A stretch of 64,000 nt of DNA, taken from a virus. The stretch lies in the IMG/VR virus record IMGVR_UViG_3300025913_000030, positions 10,705 to 74,704 of that record, one strand, 5' to 3'. Shown piece by piece: positions 128 to 33,617 of the stretch (positions within the stretch are counted from its first letter, which is position 1; each line of letters starts with the position of its first letter). The translations under genes and the position numbers were made by a program. The notes under the pieces are model-generated. The model worked only from the letters and a program-made list of their open reading frames with translations, was not told where the DNA came from and made no database searches.

Positions 128-186
128 GACAGGGCACAGACATGAAAGTCGGCGCAATCCCGGGGAGGAGGGACTGCGCCGACCGG

Positions 187-259
187 TAGCGGGAACGGGA
201 CTTGAACCCGTGACACAGCGATTATGAGCCGCCTGCTCTGCCGTCTGAGCTACCCCGCC
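187..259 (-). tRNA. tRNA with CAT anticodon (elongator Met, possibly Ile2)
   Basis: Reverse complement GGCGGGGTAGCTCAGACGGCAGAGCAGGCGG-CTCATAA-TCGCTGTGTCACGGG-TTCAAGT-CCCGTTCCCGCTA folds as a cloverleaf; no encoded CCA. Confidence 0.9.
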
Positions 260-465: not shown

Positions 466-2112
466 ATGACCGTGGCCAGCCGAGCGGCGCGCGCTGCCAA
501 CCCGGACCTGATGGTCGGGCTGCAGCAGCTGGCCAACTCCCTGCCCGACTACCACCGCGCCGAAATGTATTACGAATGTACGATGCCTGAGTTCTTCGCG
601 AGCATCAGGCTTCGACGGGCCCTGGAGCGCACAGGTGTCTCCTTCCGCTTCAACCTCGCCAGCACCCCGGTCGACACCATGGCCGACCGTTTGGAGATCG
701 CCTCCCTCACCTGCGCCGACCAGCATGTCGACGACGTACTGCAGGAGATCTGGGCGCACAACCTGATGGACCTGACGGCCGGAAGCCTGCACCTGCGCAC
801 AGGCGAATTCGGCGACGCGTACGTCATCGTCTGGCCCTCGGCCGCGGACAGCGACGACGATCCGGAGCTGGCCAACGACACCAACGACGCCGAGATCCAA
901 CACAGCCGCAAGGAGCTGGCGACCCGCCGCCCGGACGGCGCCGCGGACGATGTCAACACCAAGGTAGACATCTTCTACAACTCGCCGAAGACGACCCGGA
1001 TCATCTACGACGCGGAGAACCCACGCGTCAAGCGGTTCGCGATCAAGAAGTGGACCGAGCCCGGACCGCTGGGCACCGCGTCCAAGCCGCGCAACCGGGT
1101 CAACCTGTACTACCGGGACCGGATCGAGAAGTACATCTCGGCGCCCAACTCCAAGGGAAACCAGCTCAAGGACTGGCTGCTGTACGAGGACGACGGCGAC
1201 GAGGGCTGGCCGATCGAGAACCCGTACGGCCAGATCCCCGTGTTCCACTTCAGGACCGACCTGCCCTACGGCACGCCCGAGCACCGCGCCGCCTACGGGC
1301 CGCAGGACGCCATCAACAAACTGATCATCACGCACACCGCGACGATCGACTACCACGGCTTCCCGCAGCGCTACGTCCTGTCCGAGGCCGGCAACCAGTC
1401 CGACGAGCTGGCCGACTTCGACGCCGACGACGACATCAACCGGTTCGAGGACACCGGCCACGACTCGACACTGCGCAGCGGCCCCGGCGAGGTGTGGTGG
1501 CTCAACGGGGTCAAGCAGGCCGGCCAGTTCACACCACCGAACCCTGAGATCTTCCTCGCCCCGCTCGACACCTACATCCGGATGATGGCCCAGGTCACCC
1601 GGACGCCGCTGCACTACTTCGACCCGCAGGTCTACTCCCGCCTGGCCCCGTCCGGAGAGTCGATCCGGGCCAGCGAGGTCCCGCTGCTGAAGAAGGTGCG
1701 CAAGCGCCAGATTAGCTACGGCTCGACCTGGCTGGAGGTCTTCGACTTCGCCCTGAAGGTCGCGGGCGTGGACAGCGACCCGGACATCGCGCTGCGCTGG
1801 ATCCCGGCCGCCACGATCGACGACGCCGCCGGCTGGTCGATGATCCAGGCCAAACAGCAGGCCGGCGTCCCTGTGCGCCAGACCCTGCTCGAGGCCGGCT
1901 ACGACCCGGACATGGTCGATTCCTGGCTGGTGAACGGTGAAGGCCTCGAGCAGCGCGTCGACCTGCTCGTCAAGATCGCCGCAGCGGCCCAGCAGCTGGG
2001 CACCGCGACCGGCTTCGGCGTCTTGGACGCGGCCGACGTCAACAAGGTGATCATGACCGTGCTGAACCTGAGCGACAGCTCCCACGAGGAACTCACAGTA
2101 GGGACCGCCTGA
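466..2112 (+). CDS. Phage portal protein (SPP1-like)
   Basis: 548 aa, RBS AGGAGG, motifs FGDAYVIVWP, NPYGQIPVFHF, QDAINK, FPQRY; first gene of the head module. Confidence 0.88.
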   Translation: MTVASRAARAANPDLMVGLQQLANSLPDYHRAEMYYECTMPEFFASIRLRRALERTGVSFRFNLASTPVDTMADRLEIASLTCADQHVDDVLQEIWAHNLMDLTAGSLHLRTGEFGDAYVIVWPSAADSDDDPELANDTNDAEIQHSRKELATRRPDGAADDVNTKVDIFYNSPKTTRIIYDAENPRVKRFAIKKWTEPGPLGTASKPRNRVNLYYRDRIEKYISAPNSKGNQLKDWLLYEDDGDEGWPIENPYGQIPVFHFRTDLPYGTPEHRAAYGPQDAINKLIITHTATIDYHGFPQRYVLSEAGNQSDELADFDADDDINRFEDTGHDSTLRSGPGEVWWLNGVKQAGQFTPPNPEIFLAPLDTYIRMMAQVTRTPLHYFDPQVYSRLAPSGESIRASEVPLLKKVRKRQISYGSTWLEVFDFALKVAGVDSDPDIALRWIPAATIDDAAGWSMIQAKQQAGVPVRQTLLEAGYDPDMVDSWLVNGEGLEQRVDLLVKIAAAAQQLGTATGFGVLDAADVNKVIMTVLNLSDSSHEELTVGTA

Positions 2113-2303: not shown

Positions 2304-2500
2304 CCATGACCCGCAAGGCGCCTGCGCACGCATACGGCAACGTCAAGGGAGCGCGCTCCGTCCCGGCGATGAAGACCGACGCCCTCGGGCGCGCCAAGGC
2401 GAAGGCGCCCTCGGCCGCCGAGCCCGCCGGGCACGTCGTCGCACCGGCCGCGCCCGTGCGCCGGGTCACCGCCAAGACCATGGGCAAGCGCCTGAAGTGA
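2300..2500 (+). CDS. Small basic protein
   Basis: 66 aa, GTGA overlaps at both ends. Confidence 0.65.
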   Translation: MTMTRKAPAHAYGNVKGARSVPAMKTDALGRAKAKAPSAAEPAGHVVAPAAPVRRVTAKTMGKRLK

Positions 2501-3588
2501 CCTCCGACCCGACCGGGGGATCGGGCGCGCCTGAGTCCCCCGGTCCCGTCACCGGGGCCGTGTTCGCGGCAACCGCCGGCTATTCGGCCGCTCTGATCGA
2601 CCTGGAGGAGCAGGCGGCGCAAGTCGCCTCTGCTCCGCTGCGCGCCCGGATCGCCGAGATCCTGCGCCGCCTCACCGCGCTCTACACCTCTCTGGCCGGC
2701 TCCCCCGACGCACCGCTTCCGCCGCAGCACGCGGCGCAGCTGCTGACCGAGCTCGCTTCCGAACTGGGCTCGCTGCGCGGCATCGACCCCTCGCCGGTCG
2801 TCGCCGACTTCGCCTCCCGCGCCTATCACGCGGCCGTCGCCTTTTCCCAGGAGCAGCTCGGGCTGCTGGCCGTCGACCGCCTGCCCGGCGCGCTCGCCGA
2901 CGACGCTCTGAACCAGGCCCTGGACTCGCTGCCCGGCAGCGTGGCCGAACGCATCGACGACGCGTTGCACTTCGCGCAGCAGTCCCTGGCCACGGACCTG
3001 CGTTCCGCGGTCCTGCAGCCGGTCGCGAAGGCGAACCAGGCTGCGAACACAGCCGAAGCGGCGGCGCGCTGGGCGGTCAACCGGGCCGCCAACAGCGGCG
3101 CCGCCGACAGCGCGGCGCAGGCCGGGGCGTTCCTGCTCTGGGCCGGCGAGCCGACCGCGTGTGTCCACTGTGCCGCCCATATCGGCCACTACGTGCGCCC
3201 TGGCGACTCCTTCCCGCTCGGTCTCACCTTCGGTGACAGTGCCCTGACGCCGTGGCCGGACCCCGAGCGGCTCGACGGGCCGCCACTGCACCCGAACTGC
3301 CGGTGCAGACTGATCCCGTGGCTCGGCCCGGTGGCGCTGCACCCCGTCGACACTGCGATCTACAACCGCCCCGGCCTGCAGAACCAGGTCGACCTCGCGG
3401 CGGCGATGCGCCGGGAGGCCAAGCGCGCGATCCTGCGCGGCTGGTCGCTGCCCAGCGAGTCGGAAAAGGTGCGGCTGCGCGCGGCGGACCGGCTGCTGCG
3501 CAAGGGGGCGGGGCTGCCGAAGACGGTCGAGGCACGGGCGCGCAAAGCGGTGCACGCCAAGCACTTCCCTGACAGACACATAAGATAA
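2497..3588 (+). CDS. Minor head/MuF-like head morphogenesis protein
   Basis: ACVHC...PPLHPNCRC motif; follows portal. Confidence 0.8.
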   Translation: MTSDPTGGSGAPESPGPVTGAVFAATAGYSAALIDLEEQAAQVASAPLRARIAEILRRLTALYTSLAGSPDAPLPPQHAAQLLTELASELGSLRGIDPSPVVADFASRAYHAAVAFSQEQLGLLAVDRLPGALADDALNQALDSLPGSVAERIDDALHFAQQSLATDLRSAVLQPVAKANQAANTAEAAARWAVNRAANSGAADSAAQAGAFLLWAGEPTACVHCAAHIGHYVRPGDSFPLGLTFGDSALTPWPDPERLDGPPLHPNCRCRLIPWLGPVALHPVDTAIYNRPGLQNQVDLAAAMRREAKRAILRGWSLPSESEKVRLRAADRLLRKGAGLPKTVEARARKAVHAKHFPDRHIR

Positions 3589-3646
3589 GCACTTTTGTGT
3601 ACAGTTCTTGACAACGTCCCCGCTCTCCGTGATGGAGGAAACGAAC

Positions 3647-4372
3647 ATGCGCGACTGCCTCTTCGGCGACGCACCCCTGACCCTGCTCGGCGTGACCGGT
3701 TCCGGGTTCCCCGTCTACGCCCTGGCCGGCGCCGAGCCGGACGACGAGATCGAGGTCGAGCCCGACGACGAGGGCGCTGAGACCGAGGTCGAGGAGGAGG
3801 GCGACGGCGGCGAATCCGGCTCGGGTGACGACGAGAAGGAGAAGCTGCGCGCCCAGTTGAAGAAGGCCAACGGCGAGGCGGCCAGGTACCGCCGCGAGCT
3901 GCGCGAGCTGAAGAAGCAGGCCACGGAGGAGGCGACCGAGGAGGTCGAGACCGCCGCGGAGGAGAAGGGCAGCGAGCTCACCCCCGCCCAGCTCAAGCGC
4001 GCCGTCGACAAGGCCGTGAAGGCAGCCACCGAGGCGGCCGAGACCAAGTACCGCAAGGTGGCGGTCAACGCCGCGGCGCAGTCCGCCTTCGTCAAGGCCG
4101 GCGCGAAGGCCGCGTCCGTCGGCAAGCTGGTGCGCCTGCTGGACACCGAGGACGTGGAGATCGACGCCGAGACCGGCGAGGTCACGTCAGGACTCGACGA
4201 CCAGATCGAAGCCCTCAAGGACGAGTTCCCCGAGCTGTTCGGTCCGGTCGAGGCGGCCAAGCCGAAGCCAAAGCCGAAGCGCGCCGCCGCCGCTCCCCGC
4301 CCCGAGGCCGAGCCGCAGCCCTTGAGCTCGGCCGAGAAGATCGCCGCGCAGCTCGGCATCGGCGCTCGCTGA
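3647..4372 (+). CDS. Capsid scaffolding protein
   Basis: RBS GGAGG then ATG 3647; acidic N-terminus, coiled coil (ANGEAARYRRELRE), EFPELF motif. Confidence 0.82.
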   Translation: MRDCLFGDAPLTLLGVTGSGFPVYALAGAEPDDEIEVEPDDEGAETEVEEEGDGGESGSGDDEKEKLRAQLKKANGEAARYRRELRELKKQATEEATEEVETAAEEKGSELTPAQLKRAVDKAVKAATEAAETKYRKVAVNAAAQSAFVKAGAKAASVGKLVRLLDTEDVEIDAETGEVTSGLDDQIEALKDEFPELFGPVEAAKPKPKPKRAAAAPRPEAEPQPLSSAEKIAAQLGIGAR

Positions 4373-4373
4373 G

Positions 4374-4904
4374 ATGGACACCTCGGACAAGGTCGGGCAG
4401 TACGTCCTCGTCCGCACACGGGGCTTCTACCCGTCCGTCATCCGCTTCTTCTGCCTCAAGCGGCGCGGCTGGAAGGCCTTCTTCAGCCGCGCGTCGCGCT
4501 CCCGCTTCGACCACGTCGCCGTGGTCGTCGGGCCCGGCGGACAGATCGTCGAGGCCGAACCGGGCGGCGCGCGCCGATCCAACCTGTCCGAATATGACGG
4601 GTACGAGCTCCGCTTCTCCAGCGACCCGCTCACCGACGATCAGCGCGCGAAGATCGTGGAGAAGGCCGACTGGTACGTCGACAACCACATCCCATACGGC
4701 TGGACGGACATCGCCGGGCTCGCCGTCCGCTGCCTGGACTCGGACGACTACGTCCTGATCCGCCGGGCCGACCAACAGCGCGCCGCGATCTGCTCCCAGT
4801 TGGCCGCGGTGTGCGGCGAGTACGCGGGCGTGACGGCGTGGATGTGCGGGCAGCAGCTCGCGGCCGGGGTCACGCCCGCGATGATGGACGCGCGCCTCGG
4901 ATGA
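4374..4904 (+). CDS. Permuted papain-like NlpC/P60 (YaeF/YiiX-type) hydrolase
   Basis: His motif FDHVAVVVG..IVEA precedes Cys motif ICSQLAA, with PYGW in between. Confidence 0.7.
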   Translation: MDTSDKVGQYVLVRTRGFYPSVIRFFCLKRRGWKAFFSRASRSRFDHVAVVVGPGGQIVEAEPGGARRSNLSEYDGYELRFSSDPLTDDQRAKIVEKADWYVDNHIPYGWTDIAGLAVRCLDSDDYVLIRRADQQRAAICSQLAAVCGEYAGVTAWMCGQQLAAGVTPAMMDARLG

Positions 4905-5293
4905 CGCTGCGCATCTCAACCCAGCTGCGGGGCCGGATCGTGCGCGACTGCCTGACACGGCGCCCGATCGAGGCCTGCGGCGTGGTCTCGGCCAAGGGGC
5001 GGTTCATCCCGCTGGCCAACGCCTCCGACGACCCGTCGCTGTTCTCCTTCCACCCCGAAGAACAGCTGCGCGTCTGGCAGGAGCTCGACGCGGCCGGCGA
5101 CCGCGTGGACGTGGTCTACCACTCCCACCCCCGCACGCCGGCCGCCCCCTCCCGGACCGACATCGCATTCGCCGCGTACCCGGACGTGCACTACGTCATC
5201 GTCGGCCTGGCCGATCCGGACAACCCCGAGTTCCGGTCCTGGCACATCGAGGACGGCCAGGCGGACGAGGAAACCGTCTTATTCTGGTGTTGA
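4901..5293 (+). CDS. JAB/MPN (JAMM) metalloprotease, Mec/CysO-peptidase-like
   Basis: EACG ... YHSHPRTPAAPSRTD matches E-x(n)-H-S-H-x7-S-x2-D; ATGA overlap with upstream gene. Confidence 0.88.
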   Translation: MTLRISTQLRGRIVRDCLTRRPIEACGVVSAKGRFIPLANASDDPSLFSFHPEEQLRVWQELDAAGDRVDVVYHSHPRTPAAPSRTDIAFAAYPDVHYVIVGLADPDNPEFRSWHIEDGQADEETVLFWC

Positions 5294-5421
5294 CAAAAGA
5301 GCAGTGATACCTTAATACCGGCGCGGACAGGTATCCGCAGCCACGCTGGGTCCGAGATGGGCCGACCGCTTGGCCCGCGATGGGCCGAAACCCCATCCGA
5401 ACCCAGCGAAAAGGCCACTCA

Positions 5422-6453
5422 GTGTTCTGCGCCATTTCCGAGGCGCCGCTCAAGGCGCCGCGCACTGTCATCGGCTTCACCTCCCTCGGCCCCGTCTACG
5501 CCCTCGCGGGCGGCGCACGCGACGTGATGGACGCGTGGATCCCCGAGGAGTTCGACTCGCAGGTCATCATGCGGGTCAACCAGATCAGCGGCGTCGAGGC
5601 CCTCGGCTCGCCGGTCCCCATGAACTCCGACACCCGCTCCGTCCCGCGCTCCGCGGGCATCGGCGTCGACCTGGTCGCCAAGGGCGGCACCTACGCCGAG
5701 GACGTCTCCACCAACGACGCCGTCGTCCTGACCGCGCAGAAGTTCGGCAAGGCCGTCCGGATCGCGGAAGAGGACATCGACGACGCGATCGCCGACGTCA
5801 TCGCGACCAAGCAGAAGGACTGGGCGACCAGCTACGGCAAGGCGTTCGACAACGCCTGCCTCGCGATCACCGCCGCGCCCGGTGCCAACGTCCCGTTCGC
5901 CTCGGTGTACTACTCGCTGACCCAGAGCGACAGCGCGACCGGCTACACCGCGAACAGCAACCTGGTGCAGACCGGGACCGGCGGCACCACGTACACCACG
6001 CTGTCGACCGCTCTGTCCAAGGTCGAGCAGGGCAACTACTTCGACATCTCGGAGATGGTGTGCATCGCGCACCCCACCTACCGCAACCTGCTGCGCGGCA
6101 TCAAGGACAACAACGGCCGGCCGATCTTCCAGGAGAGCAACGCCGGATTCCCGGGCGGCGGCACCGCGTCCTCGCCGGACACGATCTTCGGCATCCAGAT
6201 CCACTGGTCGCTCGGCGCGCGCACCTCGGGCGTCGTCAACTCGGCGCCGACCGGCAACGGCCTGCTGATCTTCGCCAACCGCAACTACATGATCGTCGGC
6301 CGGCGCTCGGGCCCCGAGTCCGTGTTCATCGACGGTCGCAACGGTCTCGCGGCCCTGACCGACGAGTCGATCCTCAAGATGCGCGCCCGGCGCGCGTTCG
6401 CGGTCGGCCACGAGATGGCCTTCTCGGTGCACGAGGACACCACCGGCGTCTGA
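5422..6453 (+). CDS. Major capsid protein (HK97 fold) with N-terminal leader
   Basis: AWIPEEF..VI, IKDNNGRPIF, RRAFAV motifs; GTG 5422 after GAAAAGG (alternative start 5380). Confidence 0.9.
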   Translation: MFCAISEAPLKAPRTVIGFTSLGPVYALAGGARDVMDAWIPEEFDSQVIMRVNQISGVEALGSPVPMNSDTRSVPRSAGIGVDLVAKGGTYAEDVSTNDAVVLTAQKFGKAVRIAEEDIDDAIADVIATKQKDWATSYGKAFDNACLAITAAPGANVPFASVYYSLTQSDSATGYTANSNLVQTGTGGTTYTTLSTALSKVEQGNYFDISEMVCIAHPTYRNLLRGIKDNNGRPIFQESNAGFPGGGTASSPDTIFGIQIHWSLGARTSGVVNSAPTGNGLLIFANRNYMIVGRRSGPESVFIDGRNGLAALTDESILKMRARRAFAVGHEMAFSVHEDTTGV

Positions 6454-6467
6454 TCCGCCCCCTGATC

Positions 6468-6503
6468 GAGGCCGGCGCGTACTGGGACGGGCGCGCCGGC
6501 CTC
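6468..6503 (+). terminator. Hairpin after capsid gene
   Basis: GAGGCCGGCGCG ... CGCGCCGGCCTC inverted repeat. Confidence 0.55.
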
Positions 6504-6533
6504 ACAGCAGACCCCTGACTGAAAGAAGCACCC

Positions 6534-7007
6534 GTGAGCGAGCAGCACCCTGCCCTGGACGGCGACATCGAAGCCGAGATCGCCCGCCGGTCCCCGGACG
6601 GCGGCGAGGGCCACCACTGGCTGCGCGAGCTGGTGCACCGGATCCTGCCGGGCCACCACTTCGACCCGGACACGATGGACCACACCGCGAACCTCGCGGG
6701 CGCGGCCCAGGCCGCGATCCAGGCCGGTGTGCACCCGAAGGGGCTTCCGTTCTTCGCCGGTTGCCGCCCGCACGAGAGCGCCCCGGACAACGTCGTGCTC
6801 ACCTACGCCGTGCCGGTCGTGCCCTCGATCACGGACAACGAACCGGCGAGCACCGTCACCCCGACGATGATCACGCTCGCCGCCCAGGCGCCGCAGGCGC
6901 CTGACGAGACGGAACTGACAGCCGATCCCGTCCTGGTTCCCGCAGCCGAGCAGACCGCTGAGCCTGCATCCGCTGCGGAGCCGGAAGCACAGCCCGAAAC
7001 CACCTGA
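6534..7007 (+). CDS. Hypothetical protein
   Basis: 157 aa ORF, GC3-rich codons, acidic Pro/Ala tail. Confidence 0.65.
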   Translation: MSEQHPALDGDIEAEIARRSPDGGEGHHWLRELVHRILPGHHFDPDTMDHTANLAGAAQAAIQAGVHPKGLPFFAGCRPHESAPDNVVLTYAVPVVPSITDNEPASTVTPTMITLAAQAPQAPDETELTADPVLVPAAEQTAEPASAAEPEAQPETT

Positions 7008-7035: not shown

Positions 7036-10000
7036 GTGACCGCGAACGGCGTCACCGGGGGCGACCCGACTAAGGTCAGCACGACCGGCGGCACCGTGAC
7101 CGGCACGCTTGACCTCGCCGCGGCGTCCAACCCGTTGCAGATCCCTCACGGCGCACAGGCCGGCTACGTCTGGACCGACACCGACGGCTCCGGCAACGGC
7201 GCCTGGCAGCCGTCACCCGGCGGCACGCCCGCCACCACCGTCCAGGCCGGAACCTCGTACGGGACGGCCAGCGCGGTCGGAACCCTCGGCTCCTTCGCCC
7301 GGGAAGACCACCAGCACGGAACACCGGGCCTCACCTCGGTCGCCCCCGCGACGACACTCGGCATCGGCACCGCGGCGGCAGCGGGGACCGCGACCTTGCC
7401 GGCTCGAGCTGACCACGTCCATCCGACAGCGGCGGCTGGCGTGCCCGGCTCATCGGCGGTCGGGGATGTGGCAGCAACCGGCAGCGCGAGCACCTTCGCG
7501 GCCAGCGACCACAAGCACGGGCGCGAGTCATTTGGTGCGGTCGCTGGTCAGACCGTTTACGGCGCCGCGTCCGCGAACGGTGTCGCAGCCACGCTCGCGC
7601 GCAGCGACCACACCCACGGCACGCCGTCCCTGACGACTACCGCGCCTGCGACGACGCTCGGCATCGGAACCGCTGCGGCGCTTGGTACGGCTACTCTTCC
7701 CGCGCTCGCCGATCACGTCCACCCGATGGCCGCAGCCGGGGCACCGGCCGCCTCCGCCGTCGGCGACGCGGGCGTGACCGGGGTCGCGGTCACCTTCGCG
7801 GCCAGCGACCACAAGCACGCACGGGAGGCCTTCGGCGCACCCGGCAATTCGGCGGTCGGAGACGCCTCGGCGGCAGGTGTCGCGGTCAGCATCGCCCGAT
7901 CCGACCACACCCACGGACGCGAGTCCTTCGGCCCCGCCCCTGCCACCACCCTGGGCATCGGCCAGGCCGCTGTCGCGGGCACTGCGGCGACCCCTGCGCG
8001 CTCCGACCACGCCCACCCCCTGGCGGCGGCCGGCGCTCCCGCCTCCTCCGCGGTGGGCGACACCGGAGTGACGGGAGTCGCGGTCACTTTCGCGGCCAGC
8101 GACCACAAGCACGCACGGGAGTCTTTCGGTACGCCGGGTGCGTCAGCCGTTGGCGACGCGGCAGGAGCCGGCGTAGCGACCTCTGTCGCCCGATCCGATC
8201 ACACCCACGGACGCGAGGCCTTCGGCAACGTCACCGCACTGGCCGCGTTCGGCACCGCGAGCAGCAACGGCACCGCGGCCACCGTCGCGCACAGCGACCA
8301 CGTTCACGGCGCGCCCTCGCTTCCCACCGGAAACACCTCCACCGCGGGCATCGTCCAGATCGACAACACGGCCGCCGACTACCAGCCCCTCGGCCCGGCC
8401 GCCCCCGGGTCCATCGGCAAGGTCGCTGACGCCGGCCACGTCCACCCGATGCAGCCGCACATCTTCCCGGTCAGCGCCTACGGCGCCAAGGGCGACGGAC
8501 AGCTGGACAACACCGGGTCGATGACCAGCGGCTCGGGCGCGCTCACCCTGACCAACGCGAAGTTCGCCGCGGGCGACGTCGGCAAGCTCATCGCGGTCAA
8601 GGGAGCCAAGAGCACCGGGGACACCAGCCTGGTCGGCACGATCACTGCGTTCACCAGCAGCACCCAGGTGACGGTGTCCGTCAACGCCACGGCCACGGTC
8701 ACCGGAGCCCAGGTGATGTGGGCCACCGACGACACGTCCGCGATCCAGTCCGCGATCGCCGCCGCGAACTCCTACGCCGTCACCCACAACCTCGCCGAGA
8801 TCTACTTCCCGCTGCCCGCAGGCCTGTTCTACGGCGTCGGCGGCGCGCTGAAGAACTCCGACGGGACCAACTCGGTCTTCAACAGCCAACTGACCGTCCC
8901 CGTCAACTCCGAGCAGAACAACGGCGTCACGCTCGTCTTCCGCGGCGCCGGAGACTCCGGCCAGACCAGGTACTGGAACTCCGACTACCCCGTGTGGTCC
9001 GGCAGCGCGATCCAGTCCTTCGGCGTCTTCACCACCGCGCTCAACCAGTCCAACAACATCGCCGCGGGCGGCAACCCGAGTGTCCTGGGAGGACCGACCG
9101 GGAAGTTCAACTACGGCGTCCTGCAGGGTGCCAACACGACGCCGACGTACTCGAACACCGCCCTCGTTCTGCAGGACATCACGATCCTGACGACGCACTC
9201 CGCTTCCGGCTGGACGTACTCGGCCGTGAACGCGTTCGGGGTGGCGCGGTTCCACGCGAGGAATTTCTGCTACGGCACCAACGGCGTGGTCCAGTTCTAC
9301 AAGAACTCCCCCGGACTCGGGGACTACTCCACCGTCTCCACCCTCTCCGGCGGCCTGTCCATCGGTGTGTTGATGCCGAGCAACGGCAACAACGCGTCGA
9401 ACTACCTGCAGAACGTCGTGTGCAATGGCGGGTACACCTACGCGTTGTACGCGACCGAGCACACGGTCGGCAACGACGTCACGCTCCTGTACTCCTGGAG
9501 CGGCCTGTGCCCGGTCGGCAACTACTCGGACTCCGCCTCGGGCGGCGCCGTCTCCGCGCTACATGCCATGTACTTCGACCAGATCTGCGTGGAGTCATGC
9601 ACATACCACCTCAACATCATCGGTACCGGGCAGTCCGCCACCGGACCGATCATTCATGCGGTGCTGGACACCGAGGGCACGGTGCAGTTCCGCGACGCGC
9701 AGTCGGCCGGCGCGAACACGGGCGCAGGCCTGGCCGCTGCTCTCGGTGAGATCAGGCTCGTCGGCTCGCCGTCGACCATCACGATCCAGACCGGTACGGG
9801 CGCGGGAGGCCTGGGCACGGGGCTGCGCATCATCAAGGAGCAGAACCTGCCCGGCGTGCCGAGCTCCGGTATTCCGGCGTTGGTCGACGGGACGGCGGTA
9901 TGCAACACGTTGTGGCGCCCGGCGACGGTCTACCTCTCCGGTGGCACCAACGTCACGACGGTGGCCGTCTCCCGTCTCGCGGGCGGCGTGAACACCGTTG

Positions 10001-10134
10001 CCGTGAGCAACGTCATCAGCCAGGCCGCCGGTCCGATCCCCGCGAACACACCGGTCAGGTTGGGCCCAGGCCAGTGGATCAAGGTGACGACCTCGGCGGG
10101 CACGCTCCCCACCGCCGTCTGGGTCCTGGACTAA
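7036..10134 (+). CDS. Fibre/spike protein: H-x-H repeat shaft plus pectate-lyase-like beta-helix domain
   Basis: About 12 (S/A)DHxH repeats spaced ~30 aa apart; AYGAKGDG ... DDTSAIQSAI beta-helix entry motif. Confidence 0.75.
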   Translation: MTANGVTGGDPTKVSTTGGTVTGTLDLAAASNPLQIPHGAQAGYVWTDTDGSGNGAWQPSPGGTPATTVQAGTSYGTASAVGTLGSFAREDHQHGTPGLTSVAPATTLGIGTAAAAGTATLPARADHVHPTAAAGVPGSSAVGDVAATGSASTFAASDHKHGRESFGAVAGQTVYGAASANGVAATLARSDHTHGTPSLTTTAPATTLGIGTAAALGTATLPALADHVHPMAAAGAPAASAVGDAGVTGVAVTFAASDHKHAREAFGAPGNSAVGDASAAGVAVSIARSDHTHGRESFGPAPATTLGIGQAAVAGTAATPARSDHAHPLAAAGAPASSAVGDTGVTGVAVTFAASDHKHARESFGTPGASAVGDAAGAGVATSVARSDHTHGREAFGNVTALAAFGTASSNGTAATVAHSDHVHGAPSLPTGNTSTAGIVQIDNTAADYQPLGPAAPGSIGKVADAGHVHPMQPHIFPVSAYGAKGDGQLDNTGSMTSGSGALTLTNAKFAAGDVGKLIAVKGAKSTGDTSLVGTITAFTSSTQVTVSVNATATVTGAQVMWATDDTSAIQSAIAAANSYAVTHNLAEIYFPLPAGLFYGVGGALKNSDGTNSVFNSQLTVPVNSEQNNGVTLVFRGAGDSGQTRYWNSDYPVWSGSAIQSFGVFTTALNQSNNIAAGGNPSVLGGPTGKFNYGVLQGANTTPTYSNTALVLQDITILTTHSASGWTYSAVNAFGVARFHARNFCYGTNGVVQFYKNSPGLGDYSTVSTLSGGLSIGVLMPSNGNNASNYLQNVVCNGGYTYALYATEHTVGNDVTLLYSWSGLCPVGNYSDSASGGAVSALHAMYFDQICVESCTYHLNIIGTGQSATGPIIHAVLDTEGTVQFRDAQSAGANTGAGLAAALGEIRLVGSPSTITIQTGTGAGGLGTGLRIIKEQNLPGVPSSGIPALVDGTAVCNTLWRPATVYLSGGTNVTTVAVSRLAGGVNTVAVSNVISQAAGPIPANTPVRLGPGQWIKVTTSAGTLPTAVWVLD

Positions 10135-33535: not shown

Positions 33536-33543
33536 CGGATATG

Positions 33544-33617
<74 letters not shown>

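What the first reader, a model, noticed from the sequence alone, without database searches (positions are those of the whole stretch)
3647..5514. Shared PVYALAG(G/A) leader on scaffold and capsid flanking a JAB/JAMM protease: candidate new head-maturation route
Seen: scaffold begins MRDCLFGDAPLTLLGVTGSGFPVYALAGA-EPDDE and capsid begins MFCAISEAPLKAPRTVIGFTSLGPVYALAGG-ARDV. Both ~30-aa leaders share C..APL..(L/I)GxT..G..PVYALAG. Between the two genes lie a JAMM metalloprotease with intact E/HSH/S/D motif and a permuted papain-like enzyme; no HK97-type or ClpP prohead protease is evident in the window. Established: JAMM enzymes cut after the C-terminal Gly-Gly of ubiquitin-like proteins (ThiS, MoaD and CysO end in ..(A/S)GG), and staphylococcal phage 80alpha scaffold and capsid share a leader removed by the Prp protease. 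Inference: the leaders mimic a ubiquitin-like tail and are clipped by the phage JAB.
Basis: partly seen in the sequence, partly recalled or inferred. Interest (0 to 1): 0.85.

Follow-up and report, generated by a model that had tools for sequence, protein, structure and literature searches.

The report
Gly-Gly head-protein leaders and phage JAB
In this complete 75-kb actinobacterial phage the scaffold and capsid proteins start with the same small tag ending like the tail of the host sulfur-carrier protein CysO, and a phage copy of the host enzyme that cuts that tail lies between the two genes, which points to an undescribed, still unproven way of maturing a phage head.

Summary
Scaffold (3647-4372) and capsid (5422-6453) both begin with a ~30-residue leader, a predicted hairpin ending PVYALAG(A/G). 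It occurs nowhere else in the window. The same leader sits on nearly all scaffolds and about half of the capsids in more than 80 related loci. Leaderless capsids start exactly after the Gly-Gly.

- **The JAB (4901-5293)** is an intact JAMM enzyme, 40-66% identical to host Mec, which hydrolyses CysO-cysteine after Gly-Gly.
- **Host CysO tails** read ILPAVAGG, in Streptomyces and Kitasatospora followed by two extra residues such as AR. Capsid junctions read PVYAVAGG|AR.
- **Distribution:** among the viral contigs and phage records matched, every adequately long one with a Mec-like JAB carries a leader-bearing capsid of this clade. Fifteen leaderless-capsid genomes have none.
- **JAB-less relatives:** complete relatives such as Gibson, Yara and G004 keep both leaders, and host Mec could serve them.
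- **Published parallel:** in mycobacteriophage Patience, mature head-protein ends lie right after PIFGG, beside a JAB gene.

Cleavage is untested here. The resemblance to ubiquitin-like proteins is limited to the tail. The papain-like gene is not linked. The JAB also lies in an insertion hot spot for accessory genes.

This scan reached similar readings on other genomes.

The parts
3647..4372 (+). Scaffolding protein (241 aa)
   Evidence: PF06810 at 58 bits and phrog_194. A GGAGGA lies 8 nt before the ATG.
3647..3733 (+). Scaffold leader, 29 aa, ends ..GFPVYALAGA and is followed by an acidic run EPDDE
   Evidence: It is 54% identical to this phage's own capsid leader, against 29-41% for scaffold leaders of other genomes.
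4374..4904 (+). Permuted NlpC/P60 (YiiX/YycO/LRAT-like) cysteine enzyme, 176 aa. Its start follows the scaffold stop by one base, and its stop overlaps the JAB start (ATGA).
   Evidence: His47 and Cys140-Ser141 are invariant in 26 homologues. The AF2 model has pLDDT 85. Foldseek's top hits are 3kw0, YiiX (2if6) and PLAAT. Homologues are named YycO or carry PF05708.
4901..5293 (+). Stand-alone Mec-like JAB/JAMM metallopeptidase, 130 aa
   Evidence: PF14464 at 74.6 bits. E24, H74, H76, S84 and D87 are invariant. It is 43% identical to a host Mec that neighbours cysO. PDB matches are 2kks at 3e-14 and PfJAMM1 5lda.
5422..6453 (+). Major capsid protein, HK97 fold, 343 aa with its leader
   Evidence: PF05065 at 58 bits and phrog_10. 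It is 45-53% identical to capsids of Streptomyces phages Gibson, Yara, Dryad and Zuko.
5422..5514 (+). Capsid leader, 31 aa, ends ..LGPVYALAGG. The predicted mature start is ARDVMDAWIPEE.
   Evidence: AF2 predicts a hairpin (strands 16-20 and 23-26), but at low confidence. Leaderless homologues begin M/V-ARNT..W at this exact position.
2497..3588 (+). MuF-like minor head protein (context)
   Evidence: PF04233 and TIGR01641 match weakly, and phrog_581 also matches.
466..2112 (+). Portal protein (context)
   Evidence: PF05133, and phrog_104 at 212 bits.

Best explanation
Scaffold and capsid are each made with a ~30-residue N-terminal leader. It consists of a short beta-hairpin (hydrophobic pair, Gly, aromatic, turn, Pro-Val/Ile-Tyr) followed by a tail A-L-A-G-G/A. 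That tail copies the C-terminal tail of the host sulfur-carrier protein CysO.

A Mec-type JAMM zinc peptidase cuts after the Gly-Gly, as host Mec does on the CysO-cysteine adduct. CysO precursors that carry extra residues after Gly-Gly must also be trimmed there, presumably by Mec.

In this phage the enzyme would be the phage's own diverged Mec copy (4901-5293), placed in the late operon between the two substrate genes. Relatives without the gene would rely on the host's Mec. The mature capsid would then start at ARDVMDAW and the mature scaffold at EPDDE.

Before removal, the leader probably serves assembly, because the two leaders of one genome co-vary.

- **Shown:** the leaders, their conservation and translation, the enzyme family, the tail match, and the gene distribution.
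- **Inferred:** that cutting occurs, where it occurs, and which enzyme does it.
For: 1. **The leader is a conserved module.** It is found on nearly all scaffolds and about half of the capsids in 80 IMG/VR loci and in cultured phages. The Gly-Gly is nearly invariant.
2. **Leaderless capsids mark the boundary.** Those of Zuko, KimJongPhill, OscarSo and many proviruses start exactly one residue after the Gly-Gly position.
3. **Phage JABs belong to the Mec family.** They are 40-66% identical to chromosomal Mec genes that sit beside cysO-cysM. None of 14 JAB-bearing phage records encodes a ThiS-family protein, so no phage ubiquitin-like substrate is in view.
4. **The tails match.** Host CysO ends ..TILPAVAGG, followed in Streptomyces and Kitasatospora by AR, MR or SV. 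Capsid junctions read PVYAVAGG|AR or PVYALAGG|AR.
5. **Reverse association.** Two pattern-based scans of IMG/VR with JAB alignments, plus tblastn against 50,697 cultured phages, gave a consistent result. Among the contigs they matched, every Mec-like JAB of at least 36% identity on a contig long enough to judge lies in a phage whose capsid belongs to this clade and carries the leader. These include 110-116-kb phages and phage Dryad.
6. **Forward association.** Twelve of 16 leader-capsid records at least 50% complete have a JAB. None of 15 leaderless-capsid genomes does.
7. **More than one origin or rate.** One phage JAB lineage is closer to host Mec (60-69%) than to other phage JABs (37-59%).
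8. **Host Mec is widespread.** It was found in all 5 lysogen genomes checked and in 51 of 61 sampled Actinomycetes. That can explain the JAB-less relatives.
9. **Published parallel in Patience.** gp19 is a Prok-JAB in the head operon. The gp21 N-terminal peptides start at residue 35, after ..LPIFGG. The cryo-EM capsid model starts at Thr20, after ..FPIFGG.
Against: - No protein-level data exist for this clade.
- Complete relatives keep both leaders with no JAB: G004 (100% complete), G005, Gibson and Yara.
- The JAB's position wanders. It lies next to the capsid gene, upstream of the terminase gene, or 16-30 kb away.
- Where the JAB abuts the capsid gene in L086 and L053, it sits among accessory genes (Tad3, DUF6221, Ro60).
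- The forward association is confounded by descent. Leaderless capsids are mostly a separate provirus group.
- The known substrates of JAMM enzymes carry a ubiquitin-like body (from memory), and the leader has none (hhalign probability 0.9%).
- The scaffold here, and both proteins in L010, end Gly-Ala.
- In 80alpha the analogous cut is dispensable (PMC5744158).
Confidence: 0.5

Rival explanations
1. The leader is an assembly or docking module, for example for nucleation on the portal or MuF, or for pairing scaffold with capsid. It is either not cut or is cut by some unrelated enzyme. The JAB and the papain-like gene are accessory cargo in an insertion hot spot. They would most likely be counter-defence deconjugases acting on host ubiquitin-like conjugation systems (Bil-type or CBASS type II).
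For: - The scaffold-to-capsid gap holds unrelated accessory genes in relatives. L086 has the Thoeris inhibitor Tad3, an AAA protein and DUF6221. L053 has DUF6221 and Ro60/TROVE.
- The JAB is absent from many leader-bearing genomes and its position moves.
- In 80alpha the scaffold leader is needed for assembly but need not be cut (PMC5744158).
- The two leaders of one genome co-vary, as expected for a shared binding partner.
Against: - The JAB is Mec-like. It matches the JAB models of the PADLOC defence-system library only at E 0.011-0.06.
- A general counter-defence gene should occur in many actinophage lineages. Yet in IMG/VR and in 50,697 cultured phages, Mec-like JABs were found only in phages with leader-bearing capsids.
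- This reading does not explain the CysO-like AVAGG|AR junction, nor the exact start of leaderless capsids after the Gly-Gly.
Confidence: 0.25
2. The phage JAB is an auxiliary metabolic gene. As a captured Mec, it would speed release of cysteine from host CysO-cysteine during infection and be unrelated to the head proteins.
For: - The JAB is 40-66% identical to host Mec, and one lineage looks recently captured.
- Mec hydrolyses the CysO-cysteine adduct (PMC3227635).
- Phages carry the JAB without cysO, cysM or any ThiS-family gene, so it would have to act on host CysO.
Against: - It gives no reason for restriction to one capsid type.
- It gives no reason for the repeated placement just upstream of the capsid gene: in G000, G001, G013 and G021, and in the Saccharothrix and Actinosynnema prophages.
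- Most phage copies are far more diverged (about 40-55%) than host orthologues are across the whole class (63% or more). That suggests a changed substrate.
Confidence: 0.1
3. The permuted papain-fold enzyme (4374-4904), not the JAB, removes the leaders, by analogy with the papain-like C39 peptidases that cut double-glycine leader peptides.
For: - It lies between the two substrate genes and its stop overlaps the JAB start.
- Catalytic His47 and Cys140 are intact and invariant.
- From memory, C39 peptidases cut leaders that end ..AGG.
Against: - It belongs to the YiiX/YycO/LRAT clade, not to C39.
- Homologues were found in only 3 of 28 related genomes, and there at non-structural positions.
- The near relative L010 keeps the JAB and both leaders but lacks this gene.
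Confidence: 0.05

Closest known systems
Staphylococcus phage 80alpha capsid and scaffold leaders cut by host protease Prp (PMC5744158)
   Same: Capsid and scaffold share an N-terminal leader that copies the processing site of a host protein (L27 there, CysO here). A host housekeeping peptidase can do the cutting. No classical prohead protease is present.
   Different: Prp is a cysteine protease that cuts Phe|Ala after 13-14 residues. Here the candidate is a JAMM zinc peptidase cutting after Gly-Gly, the leader is about 30 residues with a hairpin, and many phages carry their own copy of the enzyme. Cleavage is proven for 80alpha and not here.
Actinobacterial Mec (Rv1334-type JAMM) with CysO and CysM (PMC3227635). 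From memory, QbsD/QbsE of Pseudomonas also trims residues after Gly-Gly.
   Same: The enzyme family is the same, with an intact E/HxH/S/D motif. The cut would fall after a ..AVAGG tail, and in Streptomyces and Kitasatospora CysO that tail is followed by extra residues.
   Different: The phage gene has no cysO or cysM neighbour and no phage ubiquitin-like protein. It is only 43% identical to host Mec. The proposed substrate tail is internal, at the N-terminus of a large protein, and lacks the beta-grasp body.
Mycobacteriophage Patience head operon: gp19 JAB 'protease', gp21, and gp23 capsid (PMC4324244, PMC11965321)
   Same: A small Prok-JAB gene lies in the head module. Two head proteins share a leader ending P-I-F-G-G. 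Published mass spectrometry and cryo-EM place the mature ends right after the Gly-Gly.
   Different: The capsid family is unrelated at the sequence level, and the JAB is distant (29% over 69 aa). There the JAB lies between the portal and MuF genes, and it sits in the same place in the one other phage checked (Penelope2018). Here it is a sporadic, Mec-like gene. The papers do not link the JAB to the Gly-Gly cuts.
Lambda gpK-type tail-tip proteins (JAB fused to NlpC/P60)
   Same: They combine a JAB domain with an NlpC/P60-superfamily domain in a phage structural module. These are the only other phage hits of the JAB.
   Different: gpK is one fused tail protein, with about 31% identity over the JAB part. 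Here there are two separate small proteins in the head module, and the NlpC/P60 part is of the permuted YiiX/LRAT type.
Classical prohead proteases (HK97 S78, T4 S77, ClpP/S49-like, P2 gpO)
   Same: The role is the same: removal of N-terminal segments of capsid and scaffold during head assembly.
   Different: These are serine proteases of unrelated folds, and none is present in this genome. They remove long delta domains or whole scaffolds, not a short tag that ends in Gly-Gly.

Membership tests
JAMM/MPN+ metallopeptidase (Prok-JAB, PF14464) | Catalytic motif of Glu, His-x-His, Ser and Asp in the right order and spacing | tested here: met
   E24, H74-S-H76, S84 and D87 are invariant in phage JABs and host Mecs.
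JAMM/MPN+ metallopeptidase (Prok-JAB, PF14464) | Pfam score above the curated cut-off | tested here: met
   74.6 bits against a cut-off of 25. It is the single copy in the 74.7-kb genome.
Mec (CysO-cysteine hydrolase) orthologous group | Gene neighbourhood with cysO (ThiS family) and cysM | tested here: not met
   Host Mecs sit beside cysO-cysM. No ThiS-family gene is present in G000 or in 13 other JAB-bearing phage records.
Mec (CysO-cysteine hydrolase) orthologous group | Sequence identity within the range of orthologues | tested here: inconclusive
   The window JAB is 43% identical to host Mec, and other phage JABs reach 66%. Most host orthologues are 63-90% identical across the class. The NCBIfam desampylase model scores 60 bits, below its cut-off of 130.
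Mec (CysO-cysteine hydrolase) orthologous group | Hydrolysis after the C-terminal Gly-Gly of a sulfur-carrier protein | not testable with these tools
   This needs an enzyme assay.
Ubiquitin-like beta-grasp (ThiS/MoaD/CysO, PF02597), for the leader | Homology to the beta-grasp domain | tested here: not met
   hhalign of the leader profile A6 against the host ubiquitin-like profile A7 gives probability 0.9% and 5 aligned columns. The leader is only 25-48 residues long.
Ubiquitin-like beta-grasp (ThiS/MoaD/CysO, PF02597), for the leader | Tail with a hydrophobic residue at -4, a small residue at -3, and Gly-Gly at -2 and -1 | tested here: met
   The leader tails A(L/I/V)AGG match the CysO tail AVAGG by inspection. 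The window scaffold and L010 end AGA.
80alpha-type shared leader cut by a host-type peptidase | The same leader on scaffold and capsid of one phage | tested here: met
80alpha-type shared leader cut by a host-type peptidase | Proteolytic removal of the leader | not testable with these tools
   Support is only indirect: the start of leaderless homologues, and the published Patience data on a different capsid family.
Permuted NlpC/P60 (YiiX/YycO/LRAT clade), for ORF 4374-4904 | Catalytic His placed before catalytic Cys, with the Cys at the start of a helix, and a papain-like fold | tested here: met
   His47 and Cys140 are invariant. In the model, Cys140 starts helix 140-150. Top structural matches are 3kw0, 2if6 and PLAAT, with TM about 0.55-0.6.
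Permuted NlpC/P60 (YiiX/YycO/LRAT clade), for ORF 4374-4904 | Pfam PF05708 match | tested here: not met
   The window protein has no Pfam hit. Only one distant homologue carries PF05708.
Classical prohead proteases (S78, ClpP/S14, S49) | A family member encoded in the genome | tested here: not met
   No match at E up to 0.1 in the complete genome. The S77 and gpO families were not searched.
HK97-fold major capsid protein | Pfam Phage_capsid match and synteny after the scaffold gene | tested here: met
   PF05065 at 58 bits. The AF2 model was of too low confidence (pLDDT 50) to confirm the fold.

The most novel reading that the evidence does not exclude
A clade of actinobacterial phages tags its capsid and scaffold with a mimic of the tail of the sulfur-carrier protein CysO. 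It matures them with a deubiquitinase-type JAMM peptidase: the host's Mec where available, and in many lineages a captured, fast-evolving phage copy. JAMM enzymes would then be a new class of phage head-maturation protease. The system would be a bacterial-virus counterpart of ubiquitin-fusion protein processing.
Probability: 0.45. Interest if true: 0.8.

Novelty: new variant of a known kind. Interest (0 to 1): 0.7.

Why it matters
Head maturation by removal of N-terminal segments is a textbook step, but the known enzymes are serine proteases of a few folds, plus one host cysteine protease (Prp).

A JAMM zinc peptidase, the deubiquitinase fold, acting on a tag that copies a ubiquitin-like tail would add a new enzyme class. 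It would also be a second case of a phage borrowing a host protein-processing site.

It would further explain why small JAB genes of unknown role sit in many actinophage genomes. They are annotated as hypothetical protein, metalloprotease or protease.

The idea can be tested directly, because cultured phages exist both with the gene (Dryad, Patience) and without it (Gibson, Yara), in genetically tractable hosts.

Tried and rejected
- **Leader versus ubiquitin-like proteins:** the profile-profile comparison found no similarity. I therefore dropped the idea that the leader is a shrunken ubiquitin-like domain. Only the tail matches.
- **AF2 of capsid plus leader:** a 23-row alignment gave pLDDT 50. 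It is usable only as a weak hint of a hairpin in the leader. No complex prediction of the JAB with the leader was possible.
- **Tree of phage JABs and host Mecs:** the script machine was lost. Only identities to single reference sequences are available, so the number of captures is not established.
- **Word-based homologue search with the JAB:** it returned just 5 near relatives.
- **Promoter scan of 3400-6700:** it found nothing, so the operon structure rests on overlapping stops and starts only.
- **The gap between portal and MuF in relatives as a hiding place for a protease:** it holds an ADP-ribosyltransferase-domain protein and not a protease.
- **The motif as a general capsid-targeting signal on cargo proteins:** rejected, because the motif is on scaffold and capsid only.
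- **Literature:** searches for a JAMM head-maturation protease or a phage Mec gave no paper that makes this link.
Full report
**What is there.** The window is 64 kb of a complete 74.7-kb IMG/VR phage genome with direct terminal repeats. Its left end is a head module on the + strand:
- portal, 466-2112
- two small genes
- MuF-like protein, 2497-3588
- scaffold, 3647-4372 (PF06810)
- a 176-aa ORF, 4374-4904
- a Prok-JAB protein, 4901-5293 (PF14464, 74.6 bits)
- an HK97-type capsid, 5422-6453 (PF05065)

The scaffold stop is followed after one base by the next start. The 176-aa ORF overlaps the JAB start by ATGA.

**The leaders are real.** The scaffold begins with 29 residues ending ..GFPVYALAGA, followed by an acidic run. 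The capsid begins with 31 residues ending ..LGPVYALAGG, followed by ARDVMDAWIPEE. A regular expression for the motif matches only these two places in all six frames of the window. In 87 related loci its other matches are unrelated sequence.

**The leader is translated.**
- By my own count from the sequence, GC3 is 29 of 31 codons from GTG 5422 to the Gly-Gly, and it drops upstream.
- Relatives place CCAGGAGG plus ATG at the first leader codon.
- Relatives differ mainly at third positions while keeping A-(L/I/V)-A-G-G.
- Many leader-bearing capsids have no possible internal start.

**How widespread the leader is.** Capsid relatives were collected from cultured phages, IMG/VR (80 loci) and bacterial genomes (22 loci). 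These come from Streptomyces, Kitasatospora, Saccharothrix, Actinosynnema and related MAGs.

Nearly every scaffold in the clade starts with the module. An example is ..TIVGYRADGRPVYVIAGG, followed by an acidic run. About half of the capsids carry it too.

Capsids without it begin M/V-ARNT.EAWIPEE, exactly one residue after the Gly-Gly position. These include Zuko, KimJongPhill, OscarSo and many proviruses.

Within one genome the two leaders resemble each other more than they resemble foreign scaffold leaders. In the window the figure is 54%, against 29-41%. This suggests a shared partner.

**The two enzymes.** The JAB has the full JAMM motif, with E24, H74, H76, S84 and D87. Its best PDB matches are small stand-alone JAMMs, including PfJAMM1, which is solved with SAMP2.

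The 176-aa ORF is a permuted NlpC/P60 enzyme of the YiiX/YycO/LRAT type:
- His47 and Cys140 are invariant.
- The model has pLDDT 85.
- The top structural matches are 3kw0, 2if6 and PLAAT.

The genome has no S78, ClpP or S49 protease.

**Evidence against a simple "phage JAB cuts the leader".** The JAB is sporadic. Within 7 kb of the capsid gene it occurs in only 5 of 80 loci. Complete or nearly complete relatives with both leaders have none anywhere. These are G004 (100% complete), G005 (97%), and the cultured phages Gibson and Yara.

Its position also varies. It lies next to the capsid gene, upstream of the terminase gene (L088), or 16-30 kb away.

The scaffold-to-capsid gap is an insertion hot spot. 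L086 holds Tad3, an AAA protein, DUF6221 and the JAB. L053 holds DUF6221, the JAB and Ro60.

The papain-like gene is rarer still and sits elsewhere in G003, G004 and G005.

**Evidence that brought the idea back.** Five bacterial genomes that carry prophages of this capsid clade each have a chromosomal JAMM beside cysO-cysM, which is Mec. Mec hydrolyses the CysO-cysteine adduct after Gly-Gly (PMC3227635).

- **Identity to Mec.** Phage JABs are 40-66% identical to these Mecs. The G011/G026 lineage is closer to host Mecs (60-69%) than to other phage JABs (37-59%).
- **Tail match.** Host CysO ends ..TILPAVAGG. In the Streptomyces and Kitasatospora genomes it carries two further residues (AR, MR, SV), so it must be trimmed after Gly-Gly. 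Capsid junctions read PVYAVAGG|AR and, in the window, PVYALAGG|AR.
- **No phage ubiquitin-like protein.** None of 14 JAB-bearing phage records has a ThiS-family gene.
- **Distribution in viral data.** Two pattern-based scans of IMG/VR with JAB alignments found Mec-like JABs (at least 36% identical) only on contigs that carry this capsid clade with a leader. The exceptions are two short fragments. The set includes complete 75-, 110- and 116-kb phages. JABs at 31% identity or less lie in other phages.
- **Distribution in cultured phages.** Among 50,697 records, the only full-length Mec-like hit is Dryad, a member of the clade. All other hits are lambda gpK-type tail proteins.
- **Forward count.** Twelve of 16 leader-capsid records at least 50% complete have a JAB, against none of 15 leaderless-capsid genomes.
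- **Host Mec is common.** It was found in 51 of 61 sampled Actinomycetes genomes. That tally includes six unpublished genomes (G098, G107, G113, G115, G119, G126). No sequence from them was used in any alignment.

**A published parallel.**
- Patience gp19, called "protease" in the paper, is a Prok-JAB at 39 bits.
- The N-terminal peptides of gp21 start at residue 35, after a glycine (PMC4324244). In the sequence that is ..LPIFGG|T.
- The cryo-EM capsid model starts at Thr20 (PMC11965321), which follows ..FPIFGG.

That capsid family is different, and its JAB is only distantly related. Neither paper links the JAB to these ends. Even so, it shows that Gly-Gly leaders next to a JAB gene are removed in an actinophage.

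A cluster D phage, Penelope2018, also has an unannotated JAB at the same place. Its scaffold-like protein and capsid share a leader too.

**Reading.** The most economical account is an 80alpha-like arrangement (PMC5744158). The leaders copy the processing site of a host protein, here CysO. They are removed by the enzyme that serves that protein, here Mec. Many phages of the clade, this one included, carry their own diverged copy in or near the head operon. I put this at about 0.5.

The weak points are these:
- There are no protein data for the clade.
- The association is partly explained by shared descent.
- The leader lacks a ubiquitin-like body.
- This phage's scaffold ends Gly-Ala.
- The JAB keeps company with accessory genes.

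The main rival keeps the leader as an assembly module and treats the JAB and the papain-like gene as accessory cargo for counter-defence or cysteine supply. That rival does not explain the distribution or the junction sequence.

**Earlier notes.** Earlier agents of this scan reached similar conclusions on other genomes. My counts and the CysO comparison were made independently here.

Noticed in passing
L143:787-1065 (-), L142 ORF ending at 2561 (+), L151 (host genomes G084, G080, G083): CysO of Streptomyces and Kitasatospora ends AVAGG plus two extra residues (MR, AR, SV). Saccharothrix and Actinosynnema CysO end at the Gly-Gly. The former must be trimmed before use, presumably by the adjacent Mec.
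   Followed up: partly
L086:2329-6456: Between scaffold and capsid, this relative carries a Thoeris inhibitor Tad3 domain (PF25185), an AAA-like protein, DUF6221, several unknown genes and the JAB. It looks like an accessory or anti-defence island inside the head operon.
   Followed up: partly
L053:841-6706: This provirus has DUF6221, the JAB, a 581-aa Ro60/TROVE protein and a small ORF directly upstream of the capsid gene. The window itself has its Ro60 locus elsewhere, around 33-36 kb according to earlier first-reader notes.
   Followed up: no
L014:2139-4166: A 675-aa protein with a C-terminal ADP-ribosyltransferase exoenzyme domain (PF03496, 75 bits) lies between the portal and MuF genes in relatives with about 80% capsid identity. 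It may be a packaged effector.
   Followed up: no
window 7036-10134: This 1032-aa protein has many repeats of a motif like (A/S)DH.H(G/P) in its N-terminal half and a pectin-lyase-like match (phrog_32881). It lies directly after the head genes and is probably a fibre or decoration protein.
   Followed up: no
window 185-259 (-) and 33543-33617 (-): There are two tRNA-Met (CAT) genes.
   Followed up: no
L233:3272-3733, 4807-4980, 5986-6150 (Mycobacterium phage Penelope2018, cluster D): gp11, annotated as a hypothetical protein, has a JAMM motif (EICGF .. YHSHP .. S..D). The scaffold-like gp14 and the capsid gp16 share an N-terminal FL..A..GL.(L)SGHD leader. This may be a third version of the same theme.
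   Followed up: partly
L232:3661-3990 (Patience gp23): [quoted passage not shown] The 2025 cryo-EM model starts at Thr20, and its text refers to Asp40. The two statements conflict, and the later one fits a cut after PIFGG.
   Followed up: partly
L088:4009-4647: In G006 the JAB carries an extra C-terminal domain of about 80 residues with no match. It lies just upstream of the large terminase gene.
   Followed up: no
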